This document shows, piece by piece, positions 20,289-64,000 of a DNA stretch of 64,000 nucleotides. Location of the stretch: contig OZ234493.1 of the NCBI GenBank assembly GCA_965153455.1, positions 23,240,213 to 23,304,212 on the forward strand. Reading direction: 5' to 3'. Made by a program: the position numbers and the translations under genes. The first letter of the stretch is position 1. Each line of letters opens with the position of its first letter. The notes below the pieces were generated by a model, which was given only the letters and a program-made list of their open reading frames with translations, was not told where the DNA came from and did no database searches. This DNA comes from Sphagnum compactum (taxonomy: Eukaryota).

Positions 20289-22345
20289 TTAGGGTTCAGC
20301 TGGTTTCCGAATGGATTCGACTGACCCTGCTGCTTCCAGGGTAGTGTGCCGCAAACCATATTGGTTGATGACTTGGTTGTCTGCGAATTTGATAGCCCGT
20401 TCCATTTGGGTTTGGCATAACTGGGGTGTGAAGGCTGGATTAATGACTCCATCACAAAATTCACAACCCACAAAATGAGTTACAAATGGCCACCGATCAT
20501 CCCCATACACTCCTGGCTTGTACTTGGCCATCATTTCTTCAAATTTCTCTGTCAAAATTCTCCAGTACCCTTGGAAGTAGTAGGAACGCTCCAAGTATAC
20601 CTTGGAACCCCACTTCTCGCTGCATTCACCACAAAAAACCACATCAAAATTCAGATCAAGGATTACATTTTTTACTGCAGGCTCGGACAGATGAGGATCC
20701 CATATAATTTTCTGTGAGGTTGTTCTTAACTAGGGTCAGCTTCCATGTGGCTCACCTAGTCACTACGTCCAACTTGCCGGGCTTTCTATTTTCCAATTTG
20801 GTGATATCGAAAATATGGCGCATTTTTCCCCAAAAAAGAAGAATTAGTCAAATTTACACTAGGAAAGCAAACACTCTCAAAATTTCCCCCGTTTTTTTGT
20901 GAGGAAAAAACTAAAAACATGGCTCAAAGAAAGAAAAAGAAAACTGCACCCAATCAGGGTTTTCTTTTCCAATTTTTGTGATATCAAGAATTTGTCTCAT
21001 TTTTCCAAAAATAGAAGAAGAATTAATACTCGAATTTGCACTACAAACAAAAAAGTTGCCAATTTTTGGGATCCAAAAACGACAAAATTGCTTGAAAAAA
21101 GAAAGAAAAAACACTGGATTGGATTCATGGGGGGGTAGAGATTTGAAAATAAATTGACCTGTTTGAGAGCATGAGGTATACAAGTGCAGACTGATCATCA
21201 GCTTCGCCTGGAGGTCGATCAGGGAGGGCCTCGCTAAGGAGCGGACCAATGGCGTCACGGACAGGACCCTGGGGACTCATGGGAGCCCAGGCGTACAAGA
21301 GGTCCAAAGACCACTGGCAGTTCCGGAGCAAGAAAACACCAGCATTGAGAGCCAGCCAGCTTCTCTTCTCGTACACCTTGTCATCCCACCCGTGCAACAC
21401 CATGTTGTAGTTCGCGTATTTCTCCAACGGCAGTTGGAACGACATGTCCGTGAAGATGGCGTCGCTGTCCATCCACCAGATCCAGTCCACCTCTGGGTGA
21501 TTCCGCATCAGCATGTGCGTCAGGAATACCTTCACCCACCACAATGTCATGTCGTCATCAATCTTGTCCATGTTGTAGTAGATCTGGATGTCATGCAATC
21601 GGCAATAGTCCATTTTGTTCTTGATGGCCTTCAGAAGCATCTGATCTCCCCGTTTGTTTGGACAAGCTTTTGGGTGTGAGCTCGTCACCAGAAGGATGCG
21701 AGGACCAGGATCACGTTTTGATGAACAACTCGAGTAGTACTGATCATCATCATTATCACGATGCAGATCTTCAGCTGCTGCTGCTACTGCATTACATGAT
21801 CTAGTACTCTTCATCAGCTTTGCCTTGGTGATTTCTTCACGTTGCTCATCCCAGTTCTCAATTCTGGGTCCAAATTTGGTGAACTCCTGGTTTGAGTTGA
21901 AGATCTGTTGCATCTTGGTGTCTATCTCTGTGAAAAGTCTCTTGACATCCTCATCCATTGGTGGTGCTTGATAGACTTTTTCCGACGTGACTTCCTGAAT
22001 CGCGCCAGCTTGATCAATGACTTGTTTCTCCAGCTCATGATCTGAACCGAATTTTCGAACAGCTAATTTCTGAAGTGTTGTTTCACCACGACGTTGTTCT
22101 TGATCGGGTTGTCCCGAATTTACGGCGTCCTTGAAGTCGATCTCGTAGCTTACGCTCCTGACAACCAGTATGCACACAGCAACCGCGGCGAAAACGAGAT
22201 AAATACTCTTGCATTGAAACGTTTGCCGCAGCAGCTGCCCCTGCTGCTGATTGAACCCTTTCTGACCTGCAGCAGCACGCAGCATCCTTCGGTACCAGGG
22301 CAGCTCCACCGCTGCTTTTGTTGGTGATCCTTCTTTCCCTGTCAT
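20289..22345 (-). CDS. Glycosyltransferase family 34 (xyloglucan xylosyltransferase / galactomannan galactosyltransferase-like), 2 exons
   Basis: Exons about 22345-21159 and 20620-20289. N-terminal TM segment IYLVFAAVAVCILVV; motifs KNKMDYCRLH, WIWWMDSDA (DxD), LNAGVFLLRNCQWSLDLL, ADDQSALVYL, YFQGYW and WPFVTHFVGC. Confidence 0.93.
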
Positions 22346-23359
22346 GGAGACTTAATCGGAACACTGCTGCAGGAGGGCAGTACTGTACAGCTAATAACAG
22401 CTAAATGCTCCTCGCGGTCTAAACAACTCCACGACATAGAACAATCTATAATACCAATCTGAAGACAAGACGAATATGACTCATGCAGCAGCAGGAAATC
22501 ACAACTCCAGAACAAGTCATGACTTGGATTCATACCAATTGCAGGAGTGTGTCCTCTGAGGGGCTACATAATTGGGGACACATAAGTTGGGAAGTACTTG
22601 CTTTTCCACTCATTTTGGTAACATGGGGACATTGGGGGAGGGGGAAGTAGGTACATGCCTTTCCAGTCATCATGGTAACATGTAGAGCACAGGGGGGTAA
22701 CTCAGTGGGTAAAAATGTTTAACAGGGATGATTTTATCTCCTAAGATGGGATGGAAATTCACTTGTATCTGTACAATATACTTTTACCCTAGGGTTAGTT
22801 TCGTCATTCAATTATCTTTTAAATAGTGAAATGAATTTTTGTATATATGATTAAGTTGAGGTGTTGAACACTATCATAATTATCACAGGCTTCAATCTGA
22901 ATGATTTTAACTCCTCATACGAGGGTATCATAGTAGATCATGAAAAATATTTTAAAAGAAAAAAAAAACCTAATTTTTGAAAAAAAATAAGTTTATTTAA
23001 TTTTTCCATGTGGAAATTGACCCTAGGCTATCTATCATTGATATGACAATATCATCATCCCTAAGATTGGATGGAATTCATTTGTGTCTTTATGTATCAA
23101 TGATGGGACAATTTCATGTCCTAAGATTTTATTATACATACTTAGCACACCAGGATTTCAAAAGCTTGGGGGCTGCCTGAAGGCTTTTACAAAGGACCTA
23201 ACCAATTTCACTAAGCCAGGCCATCAAGTTACAGTAGAAACAAAATTCATGGGGTAAGGCCTTCCACTAAGGGTGCTCATTGTCATAAGCTCCCTATAAT
23301 CGCCTTTGGTCAAATCTGTAATGTCCTCTCTAAGGGTATAGGGAGCTTACAACCATTCA

Positions 23360-39604: not shown

Positions 39605-39938
39605 ACCCGTCGCGGAAGAAGACGACACGAGAGACACAAAAGCACAAGGAAAAATGGAGAATTAGACGCAGTTTTTGTTCTCTGGGAGTGTTCTGTTTTG
39701 TCAGTTGAAGTTTGTTGATTGCTTGCATTTTGTTATTTGAATCCAGTTCATTTTCTGCTTTAGGTTCCCCCCCCGCCCCCCCCTGGTTATCCCTTTGTTT
39801 TCCCCCTTTCTCTTTGTGAATGTAGGAGGAGGATCACAATTTGTGTGAATCTGGTGGTTACGGGAAGGAGAATTTTCTCAAGAAGTTTTTTCCTGGTGAT
39901 TGATTCTGGTACTGTTTTTTTTTTTTTTTGGGTTTTTA

Positions 39939-40481
39939 ATGTCTTTGATTCTTGTGTTGCCTACTTCTTGTTCTGGTGCTGGTGTTAGTGCTTTTTCTTC
40001 TTCTTCAAGGCAATTCAAGCCAGTTGCAAGTGTGCGGCAAGAAGTTCCATGGGAGATTGGGAAGGAGTTGAGTGCAAGGAGGAAGCGGAAAGGAAGGGGG
40101 AGATCTGTCGCTGCTGCTGTGCAAGGATTGAGGATTAGGGCAACGCAAGAAGGGGATTTTCAACGAAGGCGCTTGGTGGATGTGGTAAAAACTCTTCCTC
40201 GTGTGGCTCGAGCTTATTTCAAGAGCCCGTTTCGGAGGGCTTTGTTTGGAGGGATTGCACTATTAGGGGGATTTTATGTGGCGCAAACCATTTCTTTGTC
40301 CTTTGGTGCATTAGGCGTGAACGACGTCATTGCTGCGGCTTTGTGTGTTTTGTTCACGGAATTTGTGACTAGGTTCTATCACACACGGGTGCAGATTACA
40401 TTCCCTATAGCGCTCCTCAATAATTTCAAAATGGGGCTCACATATGGGCTCTTCATTGATGCTTTTAAGCTTGCCAGCTGA
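39939..40481 (+). CDS. Ycf20-like (DUF565) chloroplast membrane protein, intronless
   Basis: First in-frame ATG at 39939. Ser/Ala/Arg-rich transit-like N-terminus; conserved core RRALFGGIALLGGFYVAQTISLSFGALGVNDVIAA...LLNNFKMGLTYGLFIDAFKLAS*. Confidence 0.9.
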   Translation: MSLILVLPTSCSGAGVSAFSSSSRQFKPVASVRQEVPWEIGKELSARRKRKGRGRSVAAAVQGLRIRATQEGDFQRRRLVDVVKTLPRVARAYFKSPFRRALFGGIALLGGFYVAQTISLSFGALGVNDVIAAALCVLFTEFVTRFYHTRVQITFPIALLNNFKMGLTYGLFIDAFKLAS

Positions 40482-44700: not shown

Positions 44701-47700
44701 TTTATGAGTTGAAAGTCTATATTTTTGGTCTCCAGCCTGTTTGAAGTTCCTGGCTGGGTTTGTAGCTTCAGTTTTATGAGGATTTGTGTTACTATATAGA
44801 TTGGTTGTTGACTTGTTAAGCAGACATTCATCTGATCCCCTCACTGCAAATAGATTTGTGGTCTCTTGCCCTCTCTTGCATTGCACCTTGACCTAATCTA
44901 TTTTTGCCAAATGTGGCAGGATCATTAAGCCCATGACTGATCAGTACTTCTTGTCATCAGACGAGGAGCCCTTCCAGGGAAAAATTCTTATTTCAGGCAT
45001 GTTCTGCCGATTTGAGATTACGTATAAACCAACGAACATTTTTGAAACTGAGGACACAATTGAAGTCAGATCAGAGATGGATACATGCATAGTTAAATTG
45101 ATCTCAACTCACCCACTCCCCACTGTGGTTTTTCCCCGGAGTTTGGACCTTGGTTACTGCCTGACAGGGCTTTCAGTCTCTTCCTCCTACACATATGTGA
45201 GCAAAGGTGCAGGGTGTCATTTTGCAATGCTAGGCTTCAGTGATGATATGGAACAGAGGTTCAGCAGAACAGACGGGCTCCAAGATGACCAATGGAATGA
45301 CCTTCAGGCACAATACTGTGATAACAACTTCACCTTCTTTCCTCCTTTTATTGCCTACCCAAGACTGGTGACAGTTGAGGCAGACAAATCACAGGAGATT
45401 ATTGTGTTGTTCCGCCCTCCAAAGGCTGGGAAATTTTCAGGTGTGCTAAAAGTTGAAACTCAGACTGGACGCCATTGGGAAATACTTGTTACTGGGCATG
45501 CTGTGGACCTTGAAATCAGTTGTGACAAAGTCGATGGGCGTCCCTTCAGACCTGGAGAGTTCAAACTGGGAGTTGATTTTGGTAACTGTTGTGTTGCAGA
45601 ACCAACAATTCACAATGTAACAGTCACTAACTACTCTGAAGTCCCTGTGCGATTCTACTGGAGAGTAGCTGATCAGGAAGAGGTTGCTCCTTCTGGAGTA
45701 GTTCTTAAGGAAAGGGAATTGAATACAGACACAAAGAAAGCATGTTGGGAGGACCCCAGGGAGTTTGTCCCTAATCCTCGCTTTGGAGTATTGCCTGCAA
45801 AAACTGAGACCTCAATTGCATTCACATTTACACCACCAGATCTAGGAAATTATCGGCAGATTGCCAGATTATGTATTGACACACGGATGGACCATCCACT
45901 TAACTCCAATGGCTGGAAAAATTTCAGAGACACACTATTTAGGTTAGAAAATGAGTTAAGCAAGGAGAAAAAATTAGGCAAATGGAGGCGATCAGGTGCA
46001 GGTGATGGTGAAGAACAAAAAGTCTTCAAATTTTCTGATGAGAGCTTTGCTCTGAACAAAATAGACAACATGGGTCAAATTTCTATAGCACTTGAATTGA
46101 ATCTACTGGGAGTTGGGGTGTCTCTTAATGTCAAGCTCTTGCCTCCTCTGCTTGTAGTTGCTGGTGGCTTAACAGTTGGGACAGTTCACACCTTCGATAT
46201 CATTGTGAGGAACAACAGCCCTGTACCTGTTCAAATGTCATGGGAATGCCCCCACACACCCTACAAGGCTGGCATGGTGAAGAATTCTGTGTATTTTCAA
46301 CCATTGACTGGCAAAATTCCTGAGCATGGAAACCAAGAGGTTCAGGTAATATTCAGAGCAAGGAAAATTGGGGCATTTGAGGCAAGGCATGGTTGTAGAA
46401 TAACAAGCCAGTTGGATCTAGGAGGACAGGAACTACAATTTCATGTGGCAGGTCATGTTCGGGGTCCAGTTATTGCATTGTCTCCAGCAATGCTCAACTA
46501 TGGCCTTGTGCAGGTCAGTGATAATGGATCTCAATTCTCATGATTCCTCATCATTTAGCAAACAAGGTCCTACCTTGTCTTCATCTTTCTGTACATTCTT
46601 TCTCTTAGTCCTGCAAGTCTGCATTGTCCAGTGGAAGTACTGTGCCTTTTTTTCTGCCCTCACATGTGGAGTGACATCAGCACATCTCCTGTTCTCTTCA
46701 TGTTTCTTGGCCTTCACATGAGGGAACAAATCTCATTGGCAGGAGGATTCTCTTTGTGTGTTTTCTTCATGTTGTGATGCAGATTGACAGCACTCATCAA
46801 CTGGACCTGACATTGACCAATAGGAGCACAACCGCTGCTGCATTCAAGCTCTACACAGCAATAGACCCAGAAGGCCAAGCCATCATAACTTCAAGAGACA
46901 AACCTGTGGGGCTCTCGTCTTATGGTGACTTTCTGCAGTTGTTTAAAGATGGGATACCACTCAGTCAGTCATACTGCCAAGATGTGCATAATCGCTTTAT
47001 ACCACATTCACAACTGAGACCCTTGCCCTTGAGCAAAGTTTGTCAAAGGGTGTGCTACCCCCCTGGTCCACCATATCCTGAAGGAGATGTCAAGCAGCAC
47101 CTTGTTTTCTCCCCAAACAGTGGAGTGCTTCAAAAATACCAATCTATAACTGTGAAGGTGAGGACTTTTTGTCATGGAGCCTATTCCAGGATCTTTGATT
47201 TTGCATGACCTTCATATGTGATTTAAGTTTCAAATTTCATGACTGCTCAGTTTACTGAGGTTGCACATGTTGTGGATGAAGGCTGTTTTGACAGGAACTA
47301 AGCGTGGGTACCTACGTCTAGCAATCATCTGTGAGGTTGCAGATCTGGGATCCCCTACTGAGATGGCCATAGCTCGAGCTGAAATTGATGCACCCCGAGC
47401 TTGTTTGATCCCACCAATGATTGACTTGGGAATCCAATACATTCACTGTGACATTGAGAGAGATGTCACCTTGCGAAATCTCAGAGCTCTCCCTGCATCT
47501 TTCAACTGGAGGAGCCAGCATGGTGTTGGTGACCACAAGTTTGTGGACATTGAATGGACTCAAGTGTCTGGAAAAGTACCTCCAAGAGGAGAACAGCAGC
47601 TAACATTTAAGTTTACCCCCCATAGACTTGGTCCTTTTGAGTGCATCCTAGTTTGCAAGGTCTGGAAGCAGCAGTATCCATTGGGGCTTTTGCTGAAGGC

Positions 47701-50700
47701 ACACATTGTTGACATTCGTGTAAGCTTCCATGTGTTCCCTCTTGATGTGGAGGATGGACACCTACTCTCTGGCCGAGGTGTCAAGCAAGAAAGGCTACAG
47801 AAAGCACGGAAAGAGAGGCTTCTTCCACGCCGTTCAACCAGTGATGGTAGGCGGTATGAAGTAGTAACCCTTGATCCTCCAGATATTCCATGCATCGACT
47901 ATGGACGGCGGAAAATTGTTGGAAAGGTTCACTCTCTGAAGCTTGTTATACGGAATCATTCTCCTATCACTGCCAATGTCCAGTTGAGAGTACAAAAGTA
48001 TCCAAGTGAGCCAAACACTTCTCTTATAAGAGAGGAGCTATGGATGCTCGCAGCTTTAACAGGCCACCTGTCCACTCTGAACCCAAACAGAAGAGATCCA
48101 TTCCAGTCAGCAATGATAAACAAGAAGTTGCGACATCCTTTGCTGGGACGGCAAGATGAGCTCCATTTCCACTACTTTTCCAGTGCAGGAAAGTCAATGC
48201 TGTGGCGGCGAGTGGAGGGTGCAATGCACCAGGCACTAATCAAAGAGGGCCGCAGTGTGGCATTTTTGTTGTATCCCTGGCCAACAGGGGTATTAAAGGC
48301 ATGGTCAGAATGGTCTTGTGAGATTGTGTGTTTCAGCACACTGCCTGGAGTCTACTTGGATACTATCATTTGCAATGTGCGCTCTCTGACCCTGCCTATA
48401 TCAATACTCCTGCGATCAAGCTAAAGAAGGAATCCAACAAGTTGTGGAAGATAGGTATCATTTACCAAAACTTCATCTTTAGTTTGAGGTCTGAGAGCCA
48501 AATGGCACCCTCTAAGTCCTTTGAACACATAAACATGACATATCCCCATTACAGTGAGGGAGTGATGCTTAGACTATGATTACTCAATTTGTGGTTTTGA
48601 AAATGCATTGGACCCTAATCTCACCTCTTGTGCTACTGTGTTTATCAAGTCCTGTCTGGTTATGGACTCATAGTGCATTTCAGTCATGTTCATTTATCTG
48701 ATTCTCATGGTGCTGACTTTTGTGCTGGAGAATGTGTATGAATCAGATTGGCCGCCTGTCACCATTTTATTTTCCGATAGAAATTGAGCTACTGGGAAAT
48801 CCACTTGTTACCAGAATTAACTACTTAGAGCCCAGAGGTTTACAAGACATCAAAGAAACCCCTGAACTTGTCTTAACATGGAACACAATGCCCACTGGCA
48901 ACCCAGTTGTGCGCAGATCATTCTGGGTGTACAACATTTCAGCTTTTCACATGGTGGTTGAGTGGGAGGTGAAGATGGCCAGCCTTAGTAATGAAGGAGG
49001 TTTGTGTTCCATGTCCTTTGACATTGAAGATGATCGACCTGAGGTGCATGCAATGCTGGTGCCAGAGCGGGATGGTGAGGACTGTTGTGTAAGGGTGAGT
49101 ACCATACAAACCTTTTCTGGTCCATCAGAAAGCCCATGTGAGATGCTTGGTATCAGATTTTTCTGCTTGGGGCTATCTGATGGCTTAGTTCCAACCAAAA
49201 AACATCTACACAATCAACAGTTTCCACTGTTGCAGATCATGACCCTGGAATGGAAACCCTGAAAGCAACAGTGAATTAGCCAAAACTGAGCTGTCCATGA
49301 TGACTAGGATAGTAATAAAAGTCCAAACTACTACAAGCTATACTCCAGTAGACTCCAGGATGCAGCATTTCACAATCTGCTGATAGCTCACAATGAACAT
49401 GCATGCAGGCATGTGTGCAAGAGCATTTGGGTATTAGGTATGGTGGTTTGGTGCATGTCACCTTCAAAGACTTTTTGGAGGCCATGCCTGAAAATCCACC
49501 TTTCCGAATTGCACCAAAAAGACAGGTATTTGCATAATCTAGTGCTCTTATTCTATTGCTTCAACTGCTGGCCTGGACATATTCTATTGCTGAACATCTT
49601 GGCCTGTTGAGCGATTGGATAGATGTCCTGTATTTCTGGTAGAACCTGTACCAGAAGTAAGTCAAAGATATGAGGTGGTGAATGTAATGGACTGGATTTT
49701 ACAGGTCATACTTGGACAGGGCAGCTCACAATTTGTAGTTACATTCCAGTCATTGGAGGCTTCAAACTTCCAGGCCACACTTGTAGGCAAGACTCGAATT
49801 CATGATGGCCAGTTTACAAGACGACTTGCAGCCCCGAAATTTGAGTTTGACAGTGCTCTTGAGCCCATTGACAAGCAGTACATTTACCGGAGGCCCTCAA
49901 CCAAACATGTATGTGAACATGTTGTCACTTTCTTTTCTCACCGGACTTCCCAGTTTCAGTCTATGCTCATCCACAAGACCTCACAACTAGGTGGGGACCA
50001 TGTGCATCTGGAGCAGCCTAACCAAAGAAAGCTCACCAAGAAGGGTGGACCTTGGGCAGATTTTGGGAGAAAAAGATCAAAGGTACACAGGCTGGAACAT
50101 GATTCTGACCCAGATGAGTCATCTGAAGCAAGTGGTCCTCTTACAGAGGAAGGGGGTTATGATGTGCCAATCCTTGATGTTCCAGATGCCTTGATTACTG
50201 ATGCATTTACCCCAAATCTTGAGGTTGACCTAATACGCCCACTTCGTGTTACTCTGATTGCTGGCCTGCTTGTACCCAGGTGGATCTCTCACTCCAACTT
50301 TCAGCTTGTCATACTTCTGTTTTAATGAAGAGTTAGCTGCTGGTCAACCTGAAGTCTAGTTGCTTAGCAGTATGGTTGTCTTCATATGGCCATGTACAGA
50401 TCTTCCAAAGAACCATGAAGTATAAGAATTATTCCTCCCCATGAATCTGTAGTAAGATGTACCATTGTAAGTTCAGTGCTCTGTGGTAGGGTGCTTCTAC
50501 CAACACTGTCATCTTGACAGACTACCTCTTATACTTCCACCACTTTATTGTATTTTCTGGCTTCTATTCAGTTTACTTCTACTTGAGTGTACTGTAGACT
50601 AGAACTCTCCTAGTTGTCCATAACTCCATTCTCATGTGTGCAGGCTGTACTGTAATGTGGATGATACTCTCAAGTTTGAATTATTTGGTAGCATTCCTGT

Positions 50701-55860: not shown

Positions 55861-56729
55861 TCCCGCAGATAACAGTCAAAACGGGTGAAAAACATAGCAC
55901 CTCAGAGTGGAATTGCTTTCTGATCTCATGGAACTTCTCCACATTCAGTGCATAAGGAGAAACATGCAAATTGGTTTGAAGCAACGTGCACAAAAGATTG
56001 GCAGGTACATCCGATCCAGGCAGATCCAAGCTCAAAACTCAACACAATTGGAAACAAGGAGATGATACTCCAGAGGTTGCTCTTGTTGCTGGTTTTGTCA
56101 CTGCACTTAGACTCACATTCTTTCATGCCAAACTTCAAAGATCCCAAATCCTATGTTCCATGGATTGACTGCCATCATCCCTACACAATTGATTACAGAC
56201 AGAAAAGAAGGCGGCAAAGCAAGGGTTTGAATTGGACTTTGAACAGCCAGATCCTTAGCATAGATGTGCGCTTGACATTCAAACGAAGATCGAGGCACCA
56301 AACAACACACCTGCTGCCGCAGCATTTACTGGAAAGATCACCACACTCATAGCAATTGTAAGAAGAGAAACTACATCGCCTTGAACTTCTCCCTTCCGAT
56401 GTGAATTTCTTATTGCTGCAGACAGGATCCCAGAGTTGGATCACTCAAGAAGAACAAGTAGAGGAGGAGAAGATTTGGAGTTGGTCTGGATGAGGGAGGG
56501 AAGGAGACAAGTTTGTGAAAGCAGACAGAAATTCGTCCGCAAAATTTCTTCCGTGCACGCACATGCGCAACCTTACAACCCTATGAATTTGGTTTTTTCG
56601 TTCCTTTCTGTGATGCGAGGTTCTTGCGCGCGGCAACCTTCAAGAGTATTGCTGTGTGTTTTCCCTCCGCGTTCTCGAATCGATCGCGACATGGATGCAA
56701 ATCTCTCTACTTCATGATCCTTCTTGCTC

Positions 56730-59700
56730 ATGGCAATGCGCGAGCTCATCATACCTGCATCTCGCGTCCGCTTCGGTCTTTGTTTGGGTGAGTCCAGGAC
56801 TTAAATCTTTTTTACACTTCTACTGCACCTTGCAAATTTCTGCTGCTCTCCTCGTTTGTTTCGTGACCCTCAGGTCTGTAATTTTGTTCATACGAGAGCA
56901 AAAAAAGTTGAAGCTATTTCCTATTGATCGTCTCCATTCCGTGGGAGGATTTGAGCGTGCTTAAGAAGAGTCGGGTTGAAGCAACGTTTCTGAGTTTTTC
57001 GCACAACAATAATATCAACTGCTTGCAACAGGTTTTGGTCGTTGCCACAGGGTTCTAGCCTCTTCTGAAAGAGAAGATCGTCCAGTAATCACACCAGCTC
57101 CATTCTCAGGTGCGTATATGTGTTGAATGTTTTTACAAGCTAGCACAAAATTCTCACAGTAAGTGCAGAGCTCCATCTTTGAGTGGTCATAAAAAGGAGA
57201 GCCAGCATCCGAGATGGAATATCTGATTTGTTTCATTCACATTTTTAACCTTGGTTGAAACACCATGCTTTCTCACTGTAGCCTACATCTGTGAGAGCTT
57301 GTATGTTTGTTTTTCATCAGTTTCAGTGGTTGCTTGCAGACAACCAGAGAAGGATTGTAGAGAAGCTTTGGCAAAAATTCTTTTCAGATCCTTCACAATG
57401 GTGGGATCACAGGTTGGAAAAGGTAAATGCAAACTGGTTGCTGCTGGGATTCTTTTGAGGATGTAGCAAGTTGGGAGCAATTTGGGAGCAATCAGTCTTT
57501 GCTGGTTTGTCATGGTGATCACCTGGTTTGCAGCACTTGGCTGTCAGAAATACACAGCTCATGAATGAGAGATTTTGGATTTCTGGTCACAGGGACATGC
57601 AAGGTATCCTGATTTCAAACATAAGAGGACACAGGAGGCACTGTGGCTCAATAACAATTTGAAACCCCCATGGGTTGAATCAAAGCTGGTGGCAATGGCT
57701 CCAGGGAGTGTACAAGTGAGCATTTTTCAAAGGAACATACAGCTTGCAAGGTATGCTAAGGCTGGACACTATGAGATGGTATTGAAGCTTTTTCAACAAC
57801 TGCAACAAGAAGAAGGCACAATTCCTGACAGGTTCACTTTTGTTCCAGTGCTCAATGCATGTGCTAGTCTACGAGCACTTGAGGAGGGTAGACACATCCA
57901 TGCACAGATTGTACAAAGTGGTTTTGAGTCAGATGTCTACATTGGTAATAGCCTTGTTGATATGTATGCCAAATGTGGGAGCATAGAGGATTCCTGGAGA
58001 GTTTTCAGCAGGATGCCAACACGTGATTCTGTTGCATGGAATGCATTGATTTCGGGGTATGTGAAATGTGGCCAAGGACACAAGGCATTAGCATTGGCTC
58101 AAGAGATGCAACAAGAGGGGCTGGAACCTGGTGCTGTCACTTTTGTTGCTGTTTTGAATGCATGTGCCAGTGTTTTGGCACTTGAGGAAGGCAGGCGTGT
58201 GCATGAGCACATAATTCGAAGTGGTTTGGAGTCTAACTTATTTGTGGGTAATAGCCTTGTAGACATGTATGTAAAATGTAAAAGCCTGGAGGAAGCATGG
58301 GGAGTCTTCAACAGGATGCCTACACGCAATGTGGTCTCTTGGAATGCTATGATTCTTGGACATGTGAAATGCGGTTATGGGCGGAAGGCATTGGAAGTAT
58401 CTCAACAAATGCAACAGGAGGGGGTGGAGCCTAACACTCTGACCTTTGTGGGAGCACTGAATGCATGTGCTAGTTTAGCAGCACTTGAAGAAGGCAGGCA
58501 TCTGCATCAACAGATTATTCAAAGTGGGTGTGAATCTGATGTTTTAGTGGGTAACAGCCTTGTGGATATGTATGCCAAATGTGGGAGTATAGAAGATGCC
58601 TGGAGGGTGTTCAGTAGGATGCAGGCACATGATGTGTTTGCATGGAGTGCCATAATTCTGGGTTATGTCAAATGTGGGCAAGGGAAGAAGGCCTTGGAAC
58701 TAGCTCAACAAATGCAACTGGAGGGAGTGAAGCCAGACCCTGGTATCTTTGTGGCAGTACTGAATGCATGTGCTAGTGTAATGGCACTTGCAGAAGGAAA
58801 ACTTATTCATTCTCAGATAATTCAGAATGGTTGTGAGTCTGATATATTTGTGGGTAGTAGCCTTGTCGACATGTATTCTAAATGTGGGTGCATATCTGAT
58901 GCTTGGAAGGTATTCAACAGGATGTCCTCACGGAATGTGGTTGCTTGGAATGCTATGATTCTGGGATTTGTGAAATCTGGGCAAGGGCAGAAATCCTTAG
59001 AACTGTTTCGGCAAATGGAACAGAAAGGAGTGGAGCCAGATCCTGTCACATTTGTGGGAGTGCTCAATGCATGTGCCAGTGTATCAGCACTTGAAGAAGG
59101 CAGGCGTATTCATCAACAGATCATTCAAAGTGGTCTTGAGTCAGCTGTTTTTGTTGGTAGTAGCCTCCTTGATATGTATGCCAAATGTGGGAGCATAGAG
59201 GATGCACAGAAGGTGTTCAACAAGATGCCTATGCAGGATGTGATCACATGGACTGCCATGCTCAAGGGATATGCGATGCATGGGCTTGGTAAGGAAGCTC
59301 TCAGACATTTTGAACAGATGTCTCAAGCAGGTCTAGAGATGGATCAAGTCACTTTCATTTCTCTTTTGTCAGCTTGTACCCATGTGGGCCTAGTAGATGA
59401 AGGCCTCTGCTACTTTGAATCCATGGGATCAGTTTATGGTGTTCCTGCAACAGTGGAGCACTATGCCTGCATTGTTGATCTTCTTGGCCGTGCTGGCCAT
59501 CTTCAGGAAGCAGAGGATTTCATCAGTACTATGTCCTGTGAGCCTGCTGCCTCTGTATGGGTAGCTCTCCTTGGTGCTTGCAGGATTCATCATAACATGG
59601 AGATGGGAGAGCGTATTGCAAAACAGCTTGTTGAATTGGACCCTGGGAATGTTGCAAGCTATGTGCTCCTATCAAACATCTATGCTGCTGCAGGCAAGTG

Positions 59701-60163
59701 GGATCTCAGTGCAAATGTTCAACGACAGAGATTGGAAAAGGGCATGAAAAAACAGCCAGGGCCAACCTGGATTGAAGTGAATAATGAAATTCACACATTT
59801 GTTGTGGATGATCAAGACCATCCTCAAATGGTTGAAATTCATGCAGAACTGAAGAGATTGTCAGGGCAGATGAAGGATCCCGGATATGTGCCTGATACAA
59901 AACTTGTGCTGCATGATGTAGAGGAAGAAGAGAAGTTGTTTCATTTGTGTCACCATAGCGAGAAGCTGGCTATTGCATATGGGCTGATCAGCACACCTCC
60001 TTATACTCCACTCCGGATTTTCAAAAACCTCCGGATATGTGGCAATTGCCACACATTTACCAAGTTCATTGCAAATCTAGTTAAGAGAGAAATCATAGTC
60101 AGAGATGCCAATTGCTTCCATCACTTTCAGGATGGTCATTGTTCTTGCAGGGATTACTGGTGA
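56730..60163 (+). CDS. PLS-class PPR protein with E1-E2-DYW domain (organellar C-to-U editing factor) and an N-terminal OSB-type PDF motif
   Basis: Proposed exons 56730-56787, 57032-57109, 57340-57422 and 57593-60163 (all GT-AG, phases consistent, 929 aa). Five PLS triplets + P2L2S2 + E1/E2; PG box KKQPGPTWIEV; HHSEKLA; CGNCH; terminal CSCRDYW*. Confidence 0.92.
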
Positions 60164-60732
60164 TGCCAGCAGTCTCTTCTATGTGGAATGGGGAAGGATC
60201 TTTCAGATTGCTTCTGGTATGCATGCACTTTAGGTTTGTGGAATGATGCCTCAGACTGCATGCTGGTAGCTCTTTTTCTAGTGCCTAATTTGATTTTCAG
60301 AGGGAGGGGCAACAAAACATCCTGGCAATGTGAATTGGTGTCTTTTTGTATGAAGTTTGAAAGGAAGAACTTGTAGTGTCAGGGAATGAATTCCACTAGA
60401 AATGCCACTGCAAACAATTGAGGATTCTAGAAGTATGGATATCAACACATCCATCCAGGCAGTGATAACATGGCAGTTCTTCTATCTAGTTACAACCATT
60501 CACGTGCAATGAGTGTGAGGTACCAAATGACACAACTTTCATCCTTTACTGAAGTGCAAAATGTATCCCATGATACAACATTTCCTTTAAGAAATTCACT
60601 TTGACTAACCAAGTTGGGCAGCATTAAGATTACACTCTTCCTGTTATGTGATACTGGGTACAATAGCCCCTCTTTGTTGGGGTTATAAAATGATCATTGT
60701 ATACACACTACCAAACATTCATCACCTGAAGC

Positions 60733-61137: not shown

Positions 61138-64000
61138 TCAAAACATCTTTTCATATATCTCACCTGGTGTGTTTGGTTCTGAATTACTAGCTTCAGTGCT
61201 GTCAAAAGTTTCACTGCTAACGTCTTGTGAGCTGTTGCCATTGATAGAATCATCATTGTCATCACGTGAGGAAGAGCCCTGAAAGGTGGAAGGGTCGCTT
61301 GAGGAAACTCCATTGGCTAACACATGCTTGTGCTTCTTATGCTTCACTTTTGCTCTGTGATGCCAGCCATGAAGAGCATTGACAGTTGATTCCTCAAAAA
61401 TGGAATGCTTGAGTTTAGTACCCATCTGTGGAACCACCAAAGGTCGTGAAAAATTGTGTGTGAGTTTCATAATACTCGTAATAGTTTGGCAGAATTCAGT
61501 CTGGAATCCAGGTTTGAGATCTATGTCCCACAGGCAAAGCCCAAGGATCTGTGAAACTGTAGTGTGGCAAATGTACTCACCAATATGAATTGCTACCTGA
61601 AATTAAATTGAGAAAGCTCAAAATGGAACAGATGATGCTGGAGGAATACCTGGGTGACAAGTGCATATAGGGGCAGTGTGCTGTAGCTGCACAACCATTG
61701 GACAAAAAGTCTGCAAAAGGCTCCAAATACCAAGTGGTGAACTTCAGTTAAACCTTGGAAACAGTACTTTTATCTTGACGTCCCAAGGATGCATGTTCTA
61801 CAAATTTTGTGGACTCTTATTGCAATCTTGAACTGCAGTTATGTTACTCTTCACCTGTAATCACCTTTGTCACTCATGGCTCTCTTCTTACAAGCTTGTC
61901 TCTTGCTACAGCTTGCTACATACTGACAACTTTAGGCACATATTGCAAGGATTGAAGCTTTACCCCATGGCTAACCGCACTAAAACCATCCATGTCTTCC
62001 CCATCATGCAAGAATGGAATCCAAATGTGTACTGCAAAAAGGATACAGCAGTGGTAAGTCACTACACATTAGTCTTTGAGACATCGGAGTGCTGAAAGCA
62101 TGTTGAATTACAGAGACATGTGTCATTGTTGTTCTTGCAATCAAATATATCTTCATAAGTACTGAGAGTTTCTCTCAATCAGAACATTTGATCATCAGTG
62201 AATGTACACTTGACAAGAGATGTGTTCAACTACCATCAGGTACTTCAAATCTCATTTGGAAAAGTCAACAGAATGCTTACCAGAAGCCAGAAGAAGAATG
62301 CAAGCTCAAAGGCATTCTGCAGGATGGTCAACCATGATCAACATCATTCCATGAGACAAAAAGTGAATGTGTGTTCTTGCAGGCATTGGTAACAAGATGG
62401 CATATTACTAATATCAATGTAAGATGATAGGTCTACTTGAAGCCAGATTCTAATCCTGCAACATCTGTGATGCATTCCTAACCTGGAAAAACCTTACATC
62501 CCTCACCTGCTTGCATACAGTGTGTTTGATATTTTAACATGAGTCCGGTGATTGATAGATTACCTGGAAGAGGACAAAATGAATGAGGTACAGCATGACT
62601 CTTGGCCTTTTGAACCAGAACAGGTCATCCCGAAGTCGAACAGGAGTGCAATGGTAGGTTTGTCCCCTGTGGGCATGAGCATTATCACACTGAACTTGTG
62701 CATTCTTGAACAGCCTCACTGGTGTATCAACAGCCTTTACACAGCCTCGTACTTCAAGTGTCAGTTCACAGATGATCTTTTGTAGCTTAGCTCCCATTAT
62801 TAATACCATCTGCATGCAGAGCACAGAAAAACCTTAGACATCATACATCACCTGCCTGTCCAACTGCATCAAAGGCCATAGGTTGAGGTTTTGAGAAAGT
62901 TTGCTGACATAGCATTCAAACCCAAAACCACTACAACTCAGAGCTTGGCTGTTCTTATCAACCTCCTGAAATAGGTAGGTAAATAGCTAAACAAAGCTAG
63001 AGAGGTAGGTAGCAACCTAGACTATGTATGGTATTTGTCACCTTTGGCCTCCAACTTAGGCTGTAACATGCCATCTACTTAGTCAAGGCACCTAAGGAAG
63101 AAGCTAAAGAGCGGAAACAGGAAAACAAAAGACCTAATAAAAACAAGGGGGAAGAAGAATGAGAGAATTGGAGGGCAAGAAAAGTAGAAGTTAATTATTA
63201 GTGTGCTTACAAACAAAGGTAAAAATGCTATCCAGAAGAATATAGACCAACCTGCAAGGAGATAAAACCACAAAATCAGTGTGCAGCACAGTCGAAAGCC
63301 TTAAACCCTAAATTCCGCTGTTCTGAGATAGATACCTTGTAAAACCTTGCTTGAATTGTGAAGAGGTGCATTGAAGAAGAGAAGTGAGAACCAGTGGGTA
63401 GACAGGAAAGGCAGCAGACAACCCACCATGGACATCAAGGAGCAAAAAGATGACAACAAATACCCACAAATAAAACCTGTAAAGGCAAAGCCACATATTA
63501 GGATACACATTATGGCAGTTGGTTTTTTTCCCTTGCAGACATTACTGAACTTTAATCTCTGCAATGGTAGCATTGCACTACTAGAACCCAACTCAATAGT
63601 GTATGGGCAAAAGTGTCGCAGATTTGGGATGGATTAGACAAAGCAAGCAAGCTGAAAAAAGTTGAGAAGAAGTTGAGGTCAACCTGATCCCTACTACAAC
63701 TTTGAAGTCAGCTTCCACGGTGCGCTTTATGTATTTGTGGAAATCATAGTTCTTTGATAACCTATGAGTCTACACCACAAGCCAATCCATATTTTATAGA
63801 AACAGTGTGTTAGGGGGGACAAAGTGTATCAAAGGAAAACTCAAGCAGTTAGCACTCAAAATCAATTGCTGACAATATTGTATTGTGAAGGAAGCTGTTG
63901 ATCAGAATTGAAGAATGAAAGATAGTTGAGATAAACTCACAGCAAGAAAACCAACACGAAGTGTCAAGTAGTCGGTCCTTGTGACAGATCTGCTAAACTG
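60733..64000 (-). CDS. MLO: MLO family seven-transmembrane protein (3' part; 5' end lies outside the window)
   Basis: Exons encode YDFHKYIKRTVEADFKVVVGI, YLWVFVVIFLLLDVHG, WSIFFWIAFLPLF, MVLIMGAKLQKII...LRDDLFWFKRPRVMLYLIHFVLFQ, NAFELAFFFW, FVQWLCSYSTLPLYALVTQ and MGTKLKHSIFEESTVNALHGWHHRAK (CaM-binding region). Probable last exon 60929-60733. Confidence 0.93.
61106..61134. repeat. (AG)n microsatellite in the last MLO intron
   Basis: Direct reading of the AG run. Confidence 0.9.

What the first reader, a model, noticed from the sequence alone, without database searches (positions are those of the whole stretch)
56730..60163. PPR-DYW cytidine deaminase fused to an OSB-type PDF ssDNA-binding motif hidden across an intron
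Seen in sequence: the ORF track starts this protein at a TTG inside an intron. Splicing 56730-56787/57032-57109/57340-57422/57593- gives MAMRELIIPASRVRFGLCLGFGRCHRVLASSEREDRPVITPAPFSDNQRRIVEKLWQKFFSDPSQWWDHRLEK|GHARYPDFKHKRTQEALWLNNNLKPPWVESKL, followed directly by the PLS array. Established knowledge: W..FF.(N/D)P..WWD.R..K.....PDFKHK.T.EALWL is the PDF motif of plant Organellar Single-stranded DNA-Binding proteins (OSB1-4/pTAC9), where it binds ssDNA, and typical PLS-DYW editing factors carry only a transit peptide before the PPR array. Inference: one organellar protein combines an ssDNA-binding module, a sequence-specific RNA reader and a Zn-dependent cytidine deaminase. It could tether editing to the nucleoid or transcription bubble, add non-specific RNA affinity, or direct deamination onto ssDNA. 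I do not know of this architecture being characterised, but I cannot check the literature.
Basis: partly seen in the sequence, partly recalled or inferred. Interest (0 to 1): 0.9.

Follow-up and report, generated by a model that had tools for sequence, protein, structure and literature searches.

The report
RNA-editing PPR protein with PDF motif
A peat-moss gene for an organelle RNA-editing enzyme carries, ahead of its RNA-reading repeats, the small DNA-binding motif known from OSB genome-maintenance proteins, and this add-on proves common in mosses, liverworts, clubmosses and ferns, although I found no paper describing it.

Summary
Exons 56730-56787, 57032-57109, 57340-57422 and 57593-60163 join through three GT-AG introns. 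They give a 929-aa protein: presequence, one PDF motif, PLS-type PPR array, E motif and intact DYW deaminase. Intron 1 is seen in RNA. The other two junctions rest on indirect contig evidence and on a near-identical Sphagnum jensenii gene model.

The motif is a true OSB-type PDF. An HMM built only from non-PPR, OSB-like repeats matches it end to end at 66 bits. A whole-library phmmer search with a Sphagnum paralogue hits proteins named OSB1 and OSB3 at about 1e-20.

It is not a one-off fusion. 93 of 120 listed relatives carry the motif. PDF+PPR proteins occur in Sphagnum, Calypogeia, Riccia, Diphasiastrum and Adiantum. All seed-plant hits were SSB/OSB-type.

Pfam has no PDF model. Nine literature searches found no description of the architecture.

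The most likely role is an accessory single-strand nucleic-acid clamp lying 5' of the PPR footprint. This is inferred, not shown.

Novelty: new variant of a known kind. Interest: 0.6.

The parts
56730..56787 (+). Exon 1: start codon and first part of the presumed organelle presequence
   Evidence: in-frame model with donor TGG|GTGAGT; joint 56786/57031 seen in X24 (1 read), X1 and X2 contigs; the same N-terminus in S. jensenii model P0121. Organelle targeting is inferred from composition, not tested.
56788..57031 (+). Intron 1 (244 nt, GT..AG)
   Evidence: for the splice sites. for the RNA joint. X24 depth is 0 in bin 56864-57004.
57032..57109 (+). Exon 2: rest of the presequence
   Evidence: a 79-nt X2 contig covers exactly 57031-57109, and X1 record 1 ends 79 nt after joint 1. 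One search confirms the frame.
57110..57339 (+). Intron 2 (230 nt, GT..AG)
   Evidence: for the splice sites. X24 depth is 0 in bin 57146-57286. The joint itself was not among the listed rows.
57340..57422 (+). Exon 3: the N-terminal half of the PDF motif begins at 57357 (VEKLWQKFFSDPSQWWDHRLEK)
   Evidence: for the HMM alignment; the 35-nt core 57378-57412 is multi-copy. Bin depth is 1080 in X18 against about 29 beside it, and 37.7 in X24 against 0-4.5. Loose ends at 57378 and 57412 appear in X24, X1 and X18, which points to paralogues sharing this exon and its 3' boundary.
57423..57592 (+). Intron 3 (170 nt, GT..AG, phase 0), which splits the PDF motif
   Evidence: Indirect RNA support comes from X1 record 4. 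Some unspliced material is also present (X2 record 20 and X24 reads at 57535 and 57560).
57593..57679 (+). C-terminal half of the PDF motif (GHARYPDFKHKRTQEALWLNNNLKPPWVE), at the start of exon 4
   Evidence: model residues 53-101 match the OSB-only PDF HMM over positions 1-48 of 48 at 66.2 bits, and match the PPR-type HMM over 1-51 of 51 at 94 bits.
57680..57721 (+). Conserved linker (SKLVAMAPGSVQVS) between the PDF motif and the first PPR
   Evidence: P89 and G90 of the linker are nearly invariant in 52 sequences; a helix is predicted right after the PDF, with pLDDT about 78-79.
57722..59587 (+). PLS-type PPR array
   Evidence: PPR_2 at 2.7e-97 with 11 stretches, PPR at 2.7e-80, PPR_1 at 5.1e-43. 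The array boundaries are approximate.
59588..59863 (+). E motif (59588-59776) and a weak E+ match (59789-59863)
   Evidence: E_motif at 1.7e-18 over 1-63 of 63. Eplus_motif has E 0.021, below the curated cut-off.
59882..60163 (+). DYW cytidine deaminase domain and stop codon
   Evidence: DYW_deaminase at 2.2e-40 over 1-93 of 93. One search shows HSEKLA and CGNCH directly, and the protein ends CSCRDYW*.

Best explanation
This is a four-exon nuclear gene of a Sphagnum peat moss. It encodes a 929-aa protein made of an organelle presequence, one PDF motif, a conserved linker, a PLS-type PPR array, an E motif and a DYW cytidine deaminase.

Shown here:
- The domain order.
- The PDF segment is homologous to the repeats of OSB proteins.
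- The PDF+PPR arrangement is an old, conserved, multi-copy architecture of non-seed land plants.

Established knowledge:
- PLS-E-DYW proteins are site-specific C-to-U editors of organelle RNA.
- PPR arrays bind RNA with the protein N-terminus towards the RNA 5' end.
- OSB PDF motifs bind single-stranded DNA.

Inferred mechanism:
- After import, the PDF stays on the mature protein.
- It acts as a sequence-nonspecific single-strand nucleic-acid clamp on the RNA just 5' of the PPR footprint.
- This would raise affinity or residence time, or keep the site single-stranded, while the PPRs read the sequence and the DYW domain deaminates the C four nucleotides 3' of the last PPR.
- It is an accessory module, not needed for catalysis.

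My confidence is about 0.95 for the architecture and about 0.4 for this mechanism. The score given is for the whole statement.
For: Architecture.

PDF homology:
- phmmer with the Sphagnum paralogue P0124 against 1.84 billion representatives gave 775 hits at E<=1e-3 and 249 at E<=1e-10.
- These include P0197, 'protein OSB1, mitochondrial-like [Populus nigra]' (1.5e-20), and P0201, 'organellar single-stranded DNA binding protein 3 [Euphorbia peplus]' (5.1e-20).
- An HMM built from 61 PPR-type motifs matches the repeats of named OSBs nearly end to end (from HMM position 2-4 to 50-51 of 51) at 51-73 bits.
- An HMM built from 175 repeats of non-PPR, OSB-like proteins matches the window's spliced protein over 1-48 of 48 at 66.2 bits.

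Same constraints in both contexts. The invariant positions in 52 PPR-type sequences are W, F, W, D, R, D, F, H, K, L, W, P, W. Most of the same core positions (W, W, D, R, P, D, F, L, W, P, W) are nearly invariant in 130 mostly OSB-type or array proteins. Transit peptides are not conserved like this, so the motif is probably kept in the mature protein.

Position. None of the 105 PDF+PPR proteins has its first PDF starting beyond residue 300, and the median start is residue 46.

Copy number. 91 of 105 have one copy, 13 have two and 1 has three. This mirrors OSB copy-number variation. The NAR 2019 paper links an extra PDF to a longer ssDNA requirement (passage).

Folded unit. AF2 gives pLDDT 80-92 for a helix plus three short strands plus a helix that lead straight into the first PPR helices.

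PDF binds ssDNA: passages in PMC6963530, PMC4166229 and PMC6451138.

RNA runs 5'-3' along the PPR array: passage in PMC13041630.
Against: - No binding data exist for any PPR-borne PDF.
- The review passage says OSB1 and OSB2 prefer ssDNA over dsDNA or RNA.
- Physcomitrium PPR56 edits faithfully in E. coli from constructs that lack the whole N-terminus, keeping only 14 residues upstream of the first PPR (Methods passage). An N-terminal module is therefore not needed for core editing. I could not tell whether PPR56 has a PDF at all.
- The AF2 output gave no inter-domain error, so the orientation of the PDF relative to the RNA groove is unknown (pTM 0.54).
- A PDF+PPR protein occurs in Riccia. 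From recall, that lineage is held to lack organelle RNA editing, so the module may not be tied to editing.
- Two of the three splice junctions were not seen directly in RNA.
Confidence: 0.45

Rival explanations
1. Nucleoid or ssDNA tether. The PDF keeps its OSB-like preference for single-stranded DNA and anchors the editing factor to the nucleoid. The anchor point could be displaced strands, R-loops, transcription bubbles or replication intermediates. Editing would then be coupled to transcription.
For: Only ssDNA binding has been shown for PDF motifs (passages), with a stated preference over RNA. The core residues are conserved between OSB-type and PPR-type motifs.
Against: No localisation or DNA-binding data exist for any PDF+PPR protein. 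The short conserved linker and the predicted helix running straight into the first PPR look more like a fixed extension of the RNA-binding solenoid than a flexible tether. A single 50-aa motif beside a PPR array that holds RNA tightly is likely to meet RNA first.
Confidence: 0.2
2. Protein-protein or structural module. In the PPR context the PDF no longer binds nucleic acid. It serves instead as an N-terminal cap, a solubility element or an oligomerisation or partner-docking domain. This would be a non-seed-plant counterpart of helper proteins.
For: The PDF is always at the N-terminal end of the solenoid. The linker is conserved. From the passage, AtOSB2 is a tetramer. MORF helpers are restricted to seed plants (passage), whereas PDF+PPR proteins were found only in non-seed plants.
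Against: The aromatic and basic core that defines the ssDNA-binding motif is kept unchanged. A mere cap would not need this. Tandem duplication of the PDF ahead of PPR arrays fits avidity for a polymer better than capping. No interaction was tested.
Confidence: 0.15
3. The motif does not matter in the mature protein. It is removed together with the transit peptide, skipped by alternative splicing or an alternative start (for example ATG 57695), or is a decaying relic.
For: Intron-3-containing contigs and reads exist (X2 record 20, X24 reads at 57535 and 57560). Junctions 2 and 3 were not seen directly. Coverage of exons 1-2 in X24 is low, at 1.5-3.4.
Against: There are thirteen invariant columns across 52 sequences from mosses, liverworts and a lycophyte, and the motif is present in a fern. 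This argues for purifying selection over hundreds of millions of years. A start at 57695 would also remove the presequence. Spliced exon 1-2 RNA is seen in 3 runs.
Confidence: 0.07
4. The PDF directs the DYW deaminase onto single-stranded DNA, giving organelle DNA C-to-U mutagenesis or editing.
For: An ssDNA-binding motif and a cytidine deaminase sit in one polypeptide.
Against: The PDF and the deaminase lie at opposite ends of an array of roughly 600 aa whose register places the target C next to the DYW domain. All known DYW activity is on RNA (established knowledge). A family-wide DNA mutator would be strongly deleterious. Nothing here tests it.
Confidence: 0.03

Closest known systems
OSB proteins (OSB1-4 of Arabidopsis; OSB2 = pTAC9 is recalled, not checked)
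   Same: They share the roughly 50-aa PDF motif with the same conserved core. The match is end to end with 51-73 bits per repeat. Both are organelle proteins. The number of PDF copies varies in both families.
   Different: - OSBs have an N-terminal SSB-like OB fold followed by C-terminal PDFs. 35 of 130 scanned representatives carry PF00436.
- This protein has no OB fold.
- Here the PDF sits at the N-terminus, followed by a PPR array and a deaminase.
- OSBs act in mitochondrial DNA recombination surveillance, not RNA editing.
PLS-E-DYW RNA editing factors (for example Physcomitrium PPR56 and PPR65, and angiosperm DYW-type factors)
   Same: PLS array, E motif and a DYW domain with HxE and CxxCH. 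This is expected to be a stand-alone C-to-U editor.
   Different: - The textbook architecture shows only a transit peptide ahead of the array (figure legend passage).
- Here a folded nucleic-acid-binding motif precedes it.
- Heterologous assays of PPR56 discard the N-terminus.
PPR proteins with an extra nucleic-acid-binding domain (for example maize PPR4, which has an N-terminal RRM)
   Same: The same logic applies: a general RNA-binding domain placed N-terminal to a sequence-specific PPR array (passage).
   Different: - PPR4 is a P-type splicing factor, and its RRM is a different fold.
- The PDF has no solved structural relative. Foldseek found 0 matches at E<=0.001, best 2.2.

Membership tests
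PLS-class PPR-DYW RNA editing factors | Tandem PPR motifs of the PLS type | tested here: met
   PPR_2 at 2.7e-97 (11 stretches), PPR at 2.7e-80, PPR_1 at 5.1e-43. The closest relatives are PLS-type with E and DYW. The P/L/S register was not assigned motif by motif.
PLS-class PPR-DYW RNA editing factors | E motif between the array and the deaminase | tested here: met
   PF20431 at 1.7e-18 over 1-63 of 63. The E+ match is weak (E 0.021).
PLS-class PPR-DYW RNA editing factors | Complete DYW deaminase with zinc-binding HxE and CxxCH | tested here: met
   PF14432 at 2.2e-40 over 1-93 of 93. HSEKLA, CGNCH and a terminal DYW.
PLS-class PPR-DYW RNA editing factors | Organelle import and C-to-U editing of a defined site | not testable with these tools
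   The presequence is inferred from composition only. No target was predicted or assayed.
PDF motif (the ssDNA-binding repeat of OSB proteins) | A motif of about 50 aa with the conserved W..F..P..WWD.R..K..PDFKHK...LW...P.WV core, homologous to OSB repeats | tested here: met
   - the OSB-only HMM (175 repeats) against the spliced protein gives 66.2 bits over HMM positions 1-48 of 48.
- a whole-library phmmer search hits proteins named OSB1 and OSB3 at about 1e-20.
- One search gives the reciprocal test.
PDF motif (the ssDNA-binding repeat of OSB proteins) | Binds single-stranded DNA | not testable with these tools
   This is known for Arabidopsis OSB1 only from review and paper passages. The primary paper, PMC1785405, is not held.
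OSB protein family | An SSB-like OB-fold domain N-terminal to the PDF repeat(s) | tested here: not met
   no SSB match on the 864-aa ORF. Only about 50 residues precede the PDF. The protein therefore shares a module with OSBs but is not an OSB.

The most novel reading that the evidence does not exclude
The PDF motif is an ancestral, general N-terminal single-strand clamp of land-plant PLS editing factors. It works on nascent RNA or on the displaced DNA strand at the nucleoid, which makes editing co-transcriptional and independent of helper proteins. It was lost in the seed-plant lineage when MORF/RIP helpers appeared. The two would then be alternative solutions to the same problem. If so, adding a PDF could improve synthetic PPR editors.
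Probability: 0.12. Interest if true: 0.85.

Novelty: new variant of a known kind. Interest (0 to 1): 0.6.

Why it matters
PPR-DYW proteins are the specificity and catalytic factors of plant organelle RNA editing, and they are being engineered as programmable RNA base editors.

A conserved, folded nucleic-acid-binding module on the N-terminus of many such proteins in mosses, liverworts, lycophytes and ferns is missing from the standard domain scheme. Pfam has no model for it. It is also routinely cut away in heterologous assays.

If it contributes affinity, unwinding or localisation, three things follow:
- The model of how early-land-plant editing factors work without MORF helpers would change.
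- The partial understanding of the weak, loosely matching N-terminal PPRs might be improved.
- There would be a new part for synthetic editors.

It also shows that the PDF motif is a mobile module used outside OSB proteins. It occurs with PPR arrays, as pure PDF arrays, and in a dinoflagellate. This widens a motif described as plant-specific.

The test is cheap: constructs with and without the PDF in the established E. coli editing assay, plus EMSA of the isolated motif.

Tried and rejected
- **Pfam.** Scans of exon 3 alone, of the exon-4 ORF and of four full-length relatives found no family covering the PDF region. Named OSBs also carry only PF00436, or nothing, in the precomputed lists.
- **First attempt to fetch OSBs.** I searched with the first 260 aa of P0050, region 1-66, among proteins of 143-455 aa. 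It returned 10 hits among 12 candidates, none of them an OSB. The word filter was too strict.
- It has no number and falls. I gave up that route to a remote profile search.
- **ESM Atlas.** A search on the PDF part of P0124 gave one hit at 0.76, a phage cluster. This is meaningless.
- **Foldseek against the PDB.** The PDF+PPR model matched only PPR/TPR structures in its PPR half, with 0 matches at E<=0.001. The PDF-only model gave 11 matches at E<=10, best 2.2, so no structural relative was found.
- **Tree of PDF domains.** I built a tree of 405 PDF domains on 49 columns. 241 of 399 inner branches are unresolved. The PPR label needs 24 changes against 74.5 when shuffled, and well-supported branches force only 2. 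A single origin of the fusion is neither shown nor excluded. My 'array_or_frag' class also contains PPR fragments, which inflates the count.
- **Crude PPR regex.** It found nothing and I replaced it with BLAST to a PPR region.
- **Whole genome.** None is held for this window.
- **Earlier findings of this scan.** Nothing was returned in three look-ups.
- **Primary OSB paper.** Zaegel et al. 2006 (PMC1785405) is not held. It may already mention PDF motifs outside OSBs. Supplements are closed.
- **Complex prediction.** Not used, because the report claims no protein-protein binding.
- **Open question.** I could not establish whether Physcomitrium, hornworts or Selaginella have PDF+PPR proteins.
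Full report
**What is in the sequence**

The 864-codon open frame 57569-60163 (+) carries PPR repeats, an E motif and a complete DYW deaminase domain in Pfam:
- PPR_2 at 2.7e-97 with 11 stretches.
- E motif at 1.7e-18 over 1-63 of 63.
- DYW deaminase at 2.2e-40 over 1-93 of 93.

The DNA shows HSEKLA, CGNCH and a terminal CSCRDYW-stop directly.

Joining 56730-56787, 57032-57109, 57340-57422 and 57593-60163 gives a 2790-nt CDS in frame. It has 929 codons and one terminal stop. All three introns are GT-AG, of 244, 230 and 170 nt.

**RNA and comparative support for the model**

I laid one raw poly(A) RNA run, two moss or plant metatranscriptome contig sets and one DNA-like contig set on 56300-60500 at 90% likeness or more.

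- Joint 56786/57031 (GT..AG) is present in X24 (1 read), X1 and X2.
- A 79-nt X2 contig covers exactly exon 2.
- X1 record 1 runs from the 5' UTR through joint 1 and stops at the end of exon 2.
- X1 record 4 matches from 57591 onward and has 84 further letters that lie elsewhere, as expected for exon 3 joined on.
- Joints 2 and 3 were not among the 15 of 78 joints printed, so I did not see them directly.
- Some intron-3-containing material exists (X2 record 20, X24 reads at 57535 and 57560). It may be pre-mRNA or DNA carry-over.

Independently, a Sphagnum jensenii gene model (P0121) has the same N-terminus across all three junctions. Full-length Sphagnum paralogues such as P0035, P0016, P0044 and P0097 have the same layout.

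P0005, a 757-aa model that is 97% identical over 752 aligned residues, starts inside intron 3.

**Is the N-terminal segment really an OSB-type PDF motif? Yes.**

- Pfam has no model for it.
- I ran phmmer with P0124 against 1.84 billion cluster representatives. P0124 is a 186-aa Sphagnum fallax paralogue that is little more than presequence plus motif. The search gave 775 proteins at E<=1e-3, 249 at E<=1e-10 and 19 at E<=1e-30.
- The top ranks are multi-repeat proteins.
- Exact look-up names P0197 'protein OSB1, mitochondrial-like [Populus nigra]' (1.5e-20, two repeats) and P0201 'organellar single-stranded DNA binding protein 3 [Euphorbia peplus]' (5.1e-20).
- P0142 and P0157 pair a clear SSB domain with C-terminal repeats.
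- A local HMM built from 61 distinct PPR-type motifs aligns to the repeats of these OSBs nearly end to end (from HMM position 2-4 to 50-51 of 51) at 51-73 bits each.
- In the reverse direction, I built an HMM only from 175 repeats of non-PPR proteins with an OSB-like layout. It matches residues 53-101 of the window's spliced protein over positions 1-48 of 48 at 66.2 bits.
- The protein has no OB fold. It therefore shares a module with OSBs and is not itself an OSB.

**It is a family trait, not a single fusion**

A search seeded with the first 100 residues of exon 4 returned 209 proteins at E<=1e-3, of which 120 were listed.

- Of those 120, 93 have the PDFKHK half, 64 have the P..WWD half and 61 have both.
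- Most of the rest begin just after the motif or in the linker. These look like truncated models.
- This search is biased towards the motif. It shows that the motif is common, but not what share of all PPR genes carry it.
- The sources are several Sphagnum species, the leafy liverwort Calypogeia fissa and the lycophyte Diphasiastrum complanatum.
- Cluster look-ups add Riccia sorocarpa and the fern Adiantum capillus-veneris.

In the read lay, the 35-nt core of exon 3 (57378-57412) has far higher summed depth than its flanks. X18 shows 1080 against 29, and X24 shows 37.7 against 0-4.5. Loose-end consensus sequences diverge on both sides but keep the ...GAGAAG|GTAA exon end. So many paralogues share this exon and its intron position.

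Among the proteins I held:
- 105 combine PDF and PPR: 91 with one copy, 13 with two and 1 with three.
- The first PDF never starts beyond residue 300, and the median start is residue 46.
- 36 of the 105 show the DYW zinc signature. Many of the models are truncated.

A search from the fern N-terminus gave 42 hits. Every seed-plant hit was of the SSB/OSB type (for example OSB1 of pea, OSB2 of Panicum, OSB3 of Vigna). The PPR-type hits were from Diphasiastrum, Sphagnum and Adiantum only.

These searches are limited by word filters and list caps. Absence from seed plants, Physcomitrium, hornworts and Selaginella is therefore not established.

**Structure**

- AF2 on a 157-aa Sphagnum fragment with a 52-sequence alignment gave mean pLDDT 79. 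It predicts a helix (the ..LW.EFF.. part), three short strands (WWD, FKH, LW) and a helix over the ..WV.AELAA.. linker. The model then runs directly into PPR helices.
- A PDF-only model repeats the same elements with pLDDT 84-91 in the motif.
- Foldseek finds no solved relative of the PDF.
- The invariant columns in 52 PPR-type sequences are W, F, W, D, R, D, F, H, K, L, W, P, W. Most of the same core positions are nearly invariant in 130 mostly OSB-type or array proteins.

**How it most likely works**

Established knowledge:
- PLS-E-DYW proteins are site-specific C-to-U editors of organelle RNA.
- RNA runs 5' to 3' along the PPR array from the N- to the C-terminus (passage in PMC13041630).
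- PDF motifs, not the OB-like fold, carry the ssDNA binding of OSBs. An extra PDF goes with a need for longer ssDNA (passages in PMC6963530, PMC4166229 and PMC6451138).

Inference:
- The PDF stays on the mature protein. Its conservation is unlike that of a transit peptide.
- It clamps single-stranded nucleic acid just 5' of the PPR footprint, adding non-specific affinity or keeping the site open.
- I put this at about 0.4.

Against it:
- OSB1 and OSB2 are reported to prefer ssDNA to RNA.
- Physcomitrium PPR56 edits in E. coli without its N-terminus (Methods passage).

Rivals are a nucleoid or ssDNA tether (0.2), a protein-interaction or capping role (0.15), irrelevance in the mature protein (0.07) and ssDNA deamination (0.03).

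**Comparison with what is known, and novelty**

The nearest known things are:
- OSB proteins, which have the same motif in a different architecture and with a different function.
- Classical PLS-DYW editing factors, which have the same core but are drawn with only a transit peptide in front (figure legend passage in PMC9459714).
- PPR proteins with an added RNA-binding domain, such as maize PPR4, which has an RRM (same paper).

Nine full-text searches found no paper that links the PDF motif to PPR proteins.
- A 2026 OSB family study required OB fold plus PDF and never mentions PPR (0 occurrences).
- A 2026 kingdom-wide survey of editing factors has 0 occurrences of OSB or PDF in its main text, and states that MORF is confined to seed plants.
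- I saw these papers only as passages. Supplements are closed, and the primary OSB paper is not held. An earlier mention cannot be excluded.

I rate this a new variant of a known kind. Both parts are known and the combination is not described. The combination is old and widespread rather than unique to this gene.

**Verdict**

The interest lies less in this one gene than in the general point. Many editing-type PPR proteins of non-seed land plants carry an overlooked single-strand-binding module, and its role is directly testable.

Noticed in passing
P0134 and cluster members; repeat positions: A dinoflagellate (Effrenium voratum) encodes proteins made of 9 tandem PDF repeats (phmmer E 1.2e-48). 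The motif is therefore not confined to green plants, contrary to the review passages.
   Followed up: partly
P0132 (Kingdonia uniflora, 1160 aa) and P0179 (Coptis chinensis, 1526 aa); P0132 has 13 PDF repeats plus a weak SSB match. P0179 has 3 PDF repeats ahead of a kinesin motor domain and may be a merged gene model.
   Followed up: no
P0237 (Riccia sorocarpa, 458 aa); A PDF+PPR protein without an E or DYW match occurs in a marchantiid liverwort. From recall, that lineage is said to lack organelle RNA editing. The model may be truncated. If real, the module is not tied to editing.
   Followed up: partly
P0029, P0042, P0082, P0090 and P0043 (Diphasiastrum), P0170 (Adiantum), P0140 (unnamed); Two or three tandem PDF repeats precede the PPR array in lycophyte and fern proteins, whereas all Sphagnum examples seen have one.
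   Followed up: partly
window 56691-56717 (+): A short upstream ORF (ATG, 8 codons, TGA) lies in the 5' leader 13 nt before the main ATG at 56730. It is covered by the same RNA contigs.
   Followed up: no
window 57428-57592 (+): Intron 3 is partly covered in RNA runs (X2 record 20; X24 depth 4.5 in bin 57428-57568). This could be retained intron, pre-mRNA or DNA carry-over.
   Followed up: no
window 56300-56440: In the stranded run X24, reads here lie in the opposite orientation to those over the PPR gene, and 5 molecules end at 56336. A neighbouring transcript on the other strand probably ends here.
   Followed up: no
window 21125-22351 (-), 39900-40481 (+), 44897-48424 (+), 61138-61602 (-): The other long open frames match glycosyltransferase family 34, DUF565, Ig-like domains of the CFAP65/CFAP74 ciliary type, and the C-terminal part of an Mlo protein. 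This is an ordinary nuclear gene neighbourhood with no second PDF or DYW gene in the window.
   Followed up: partly
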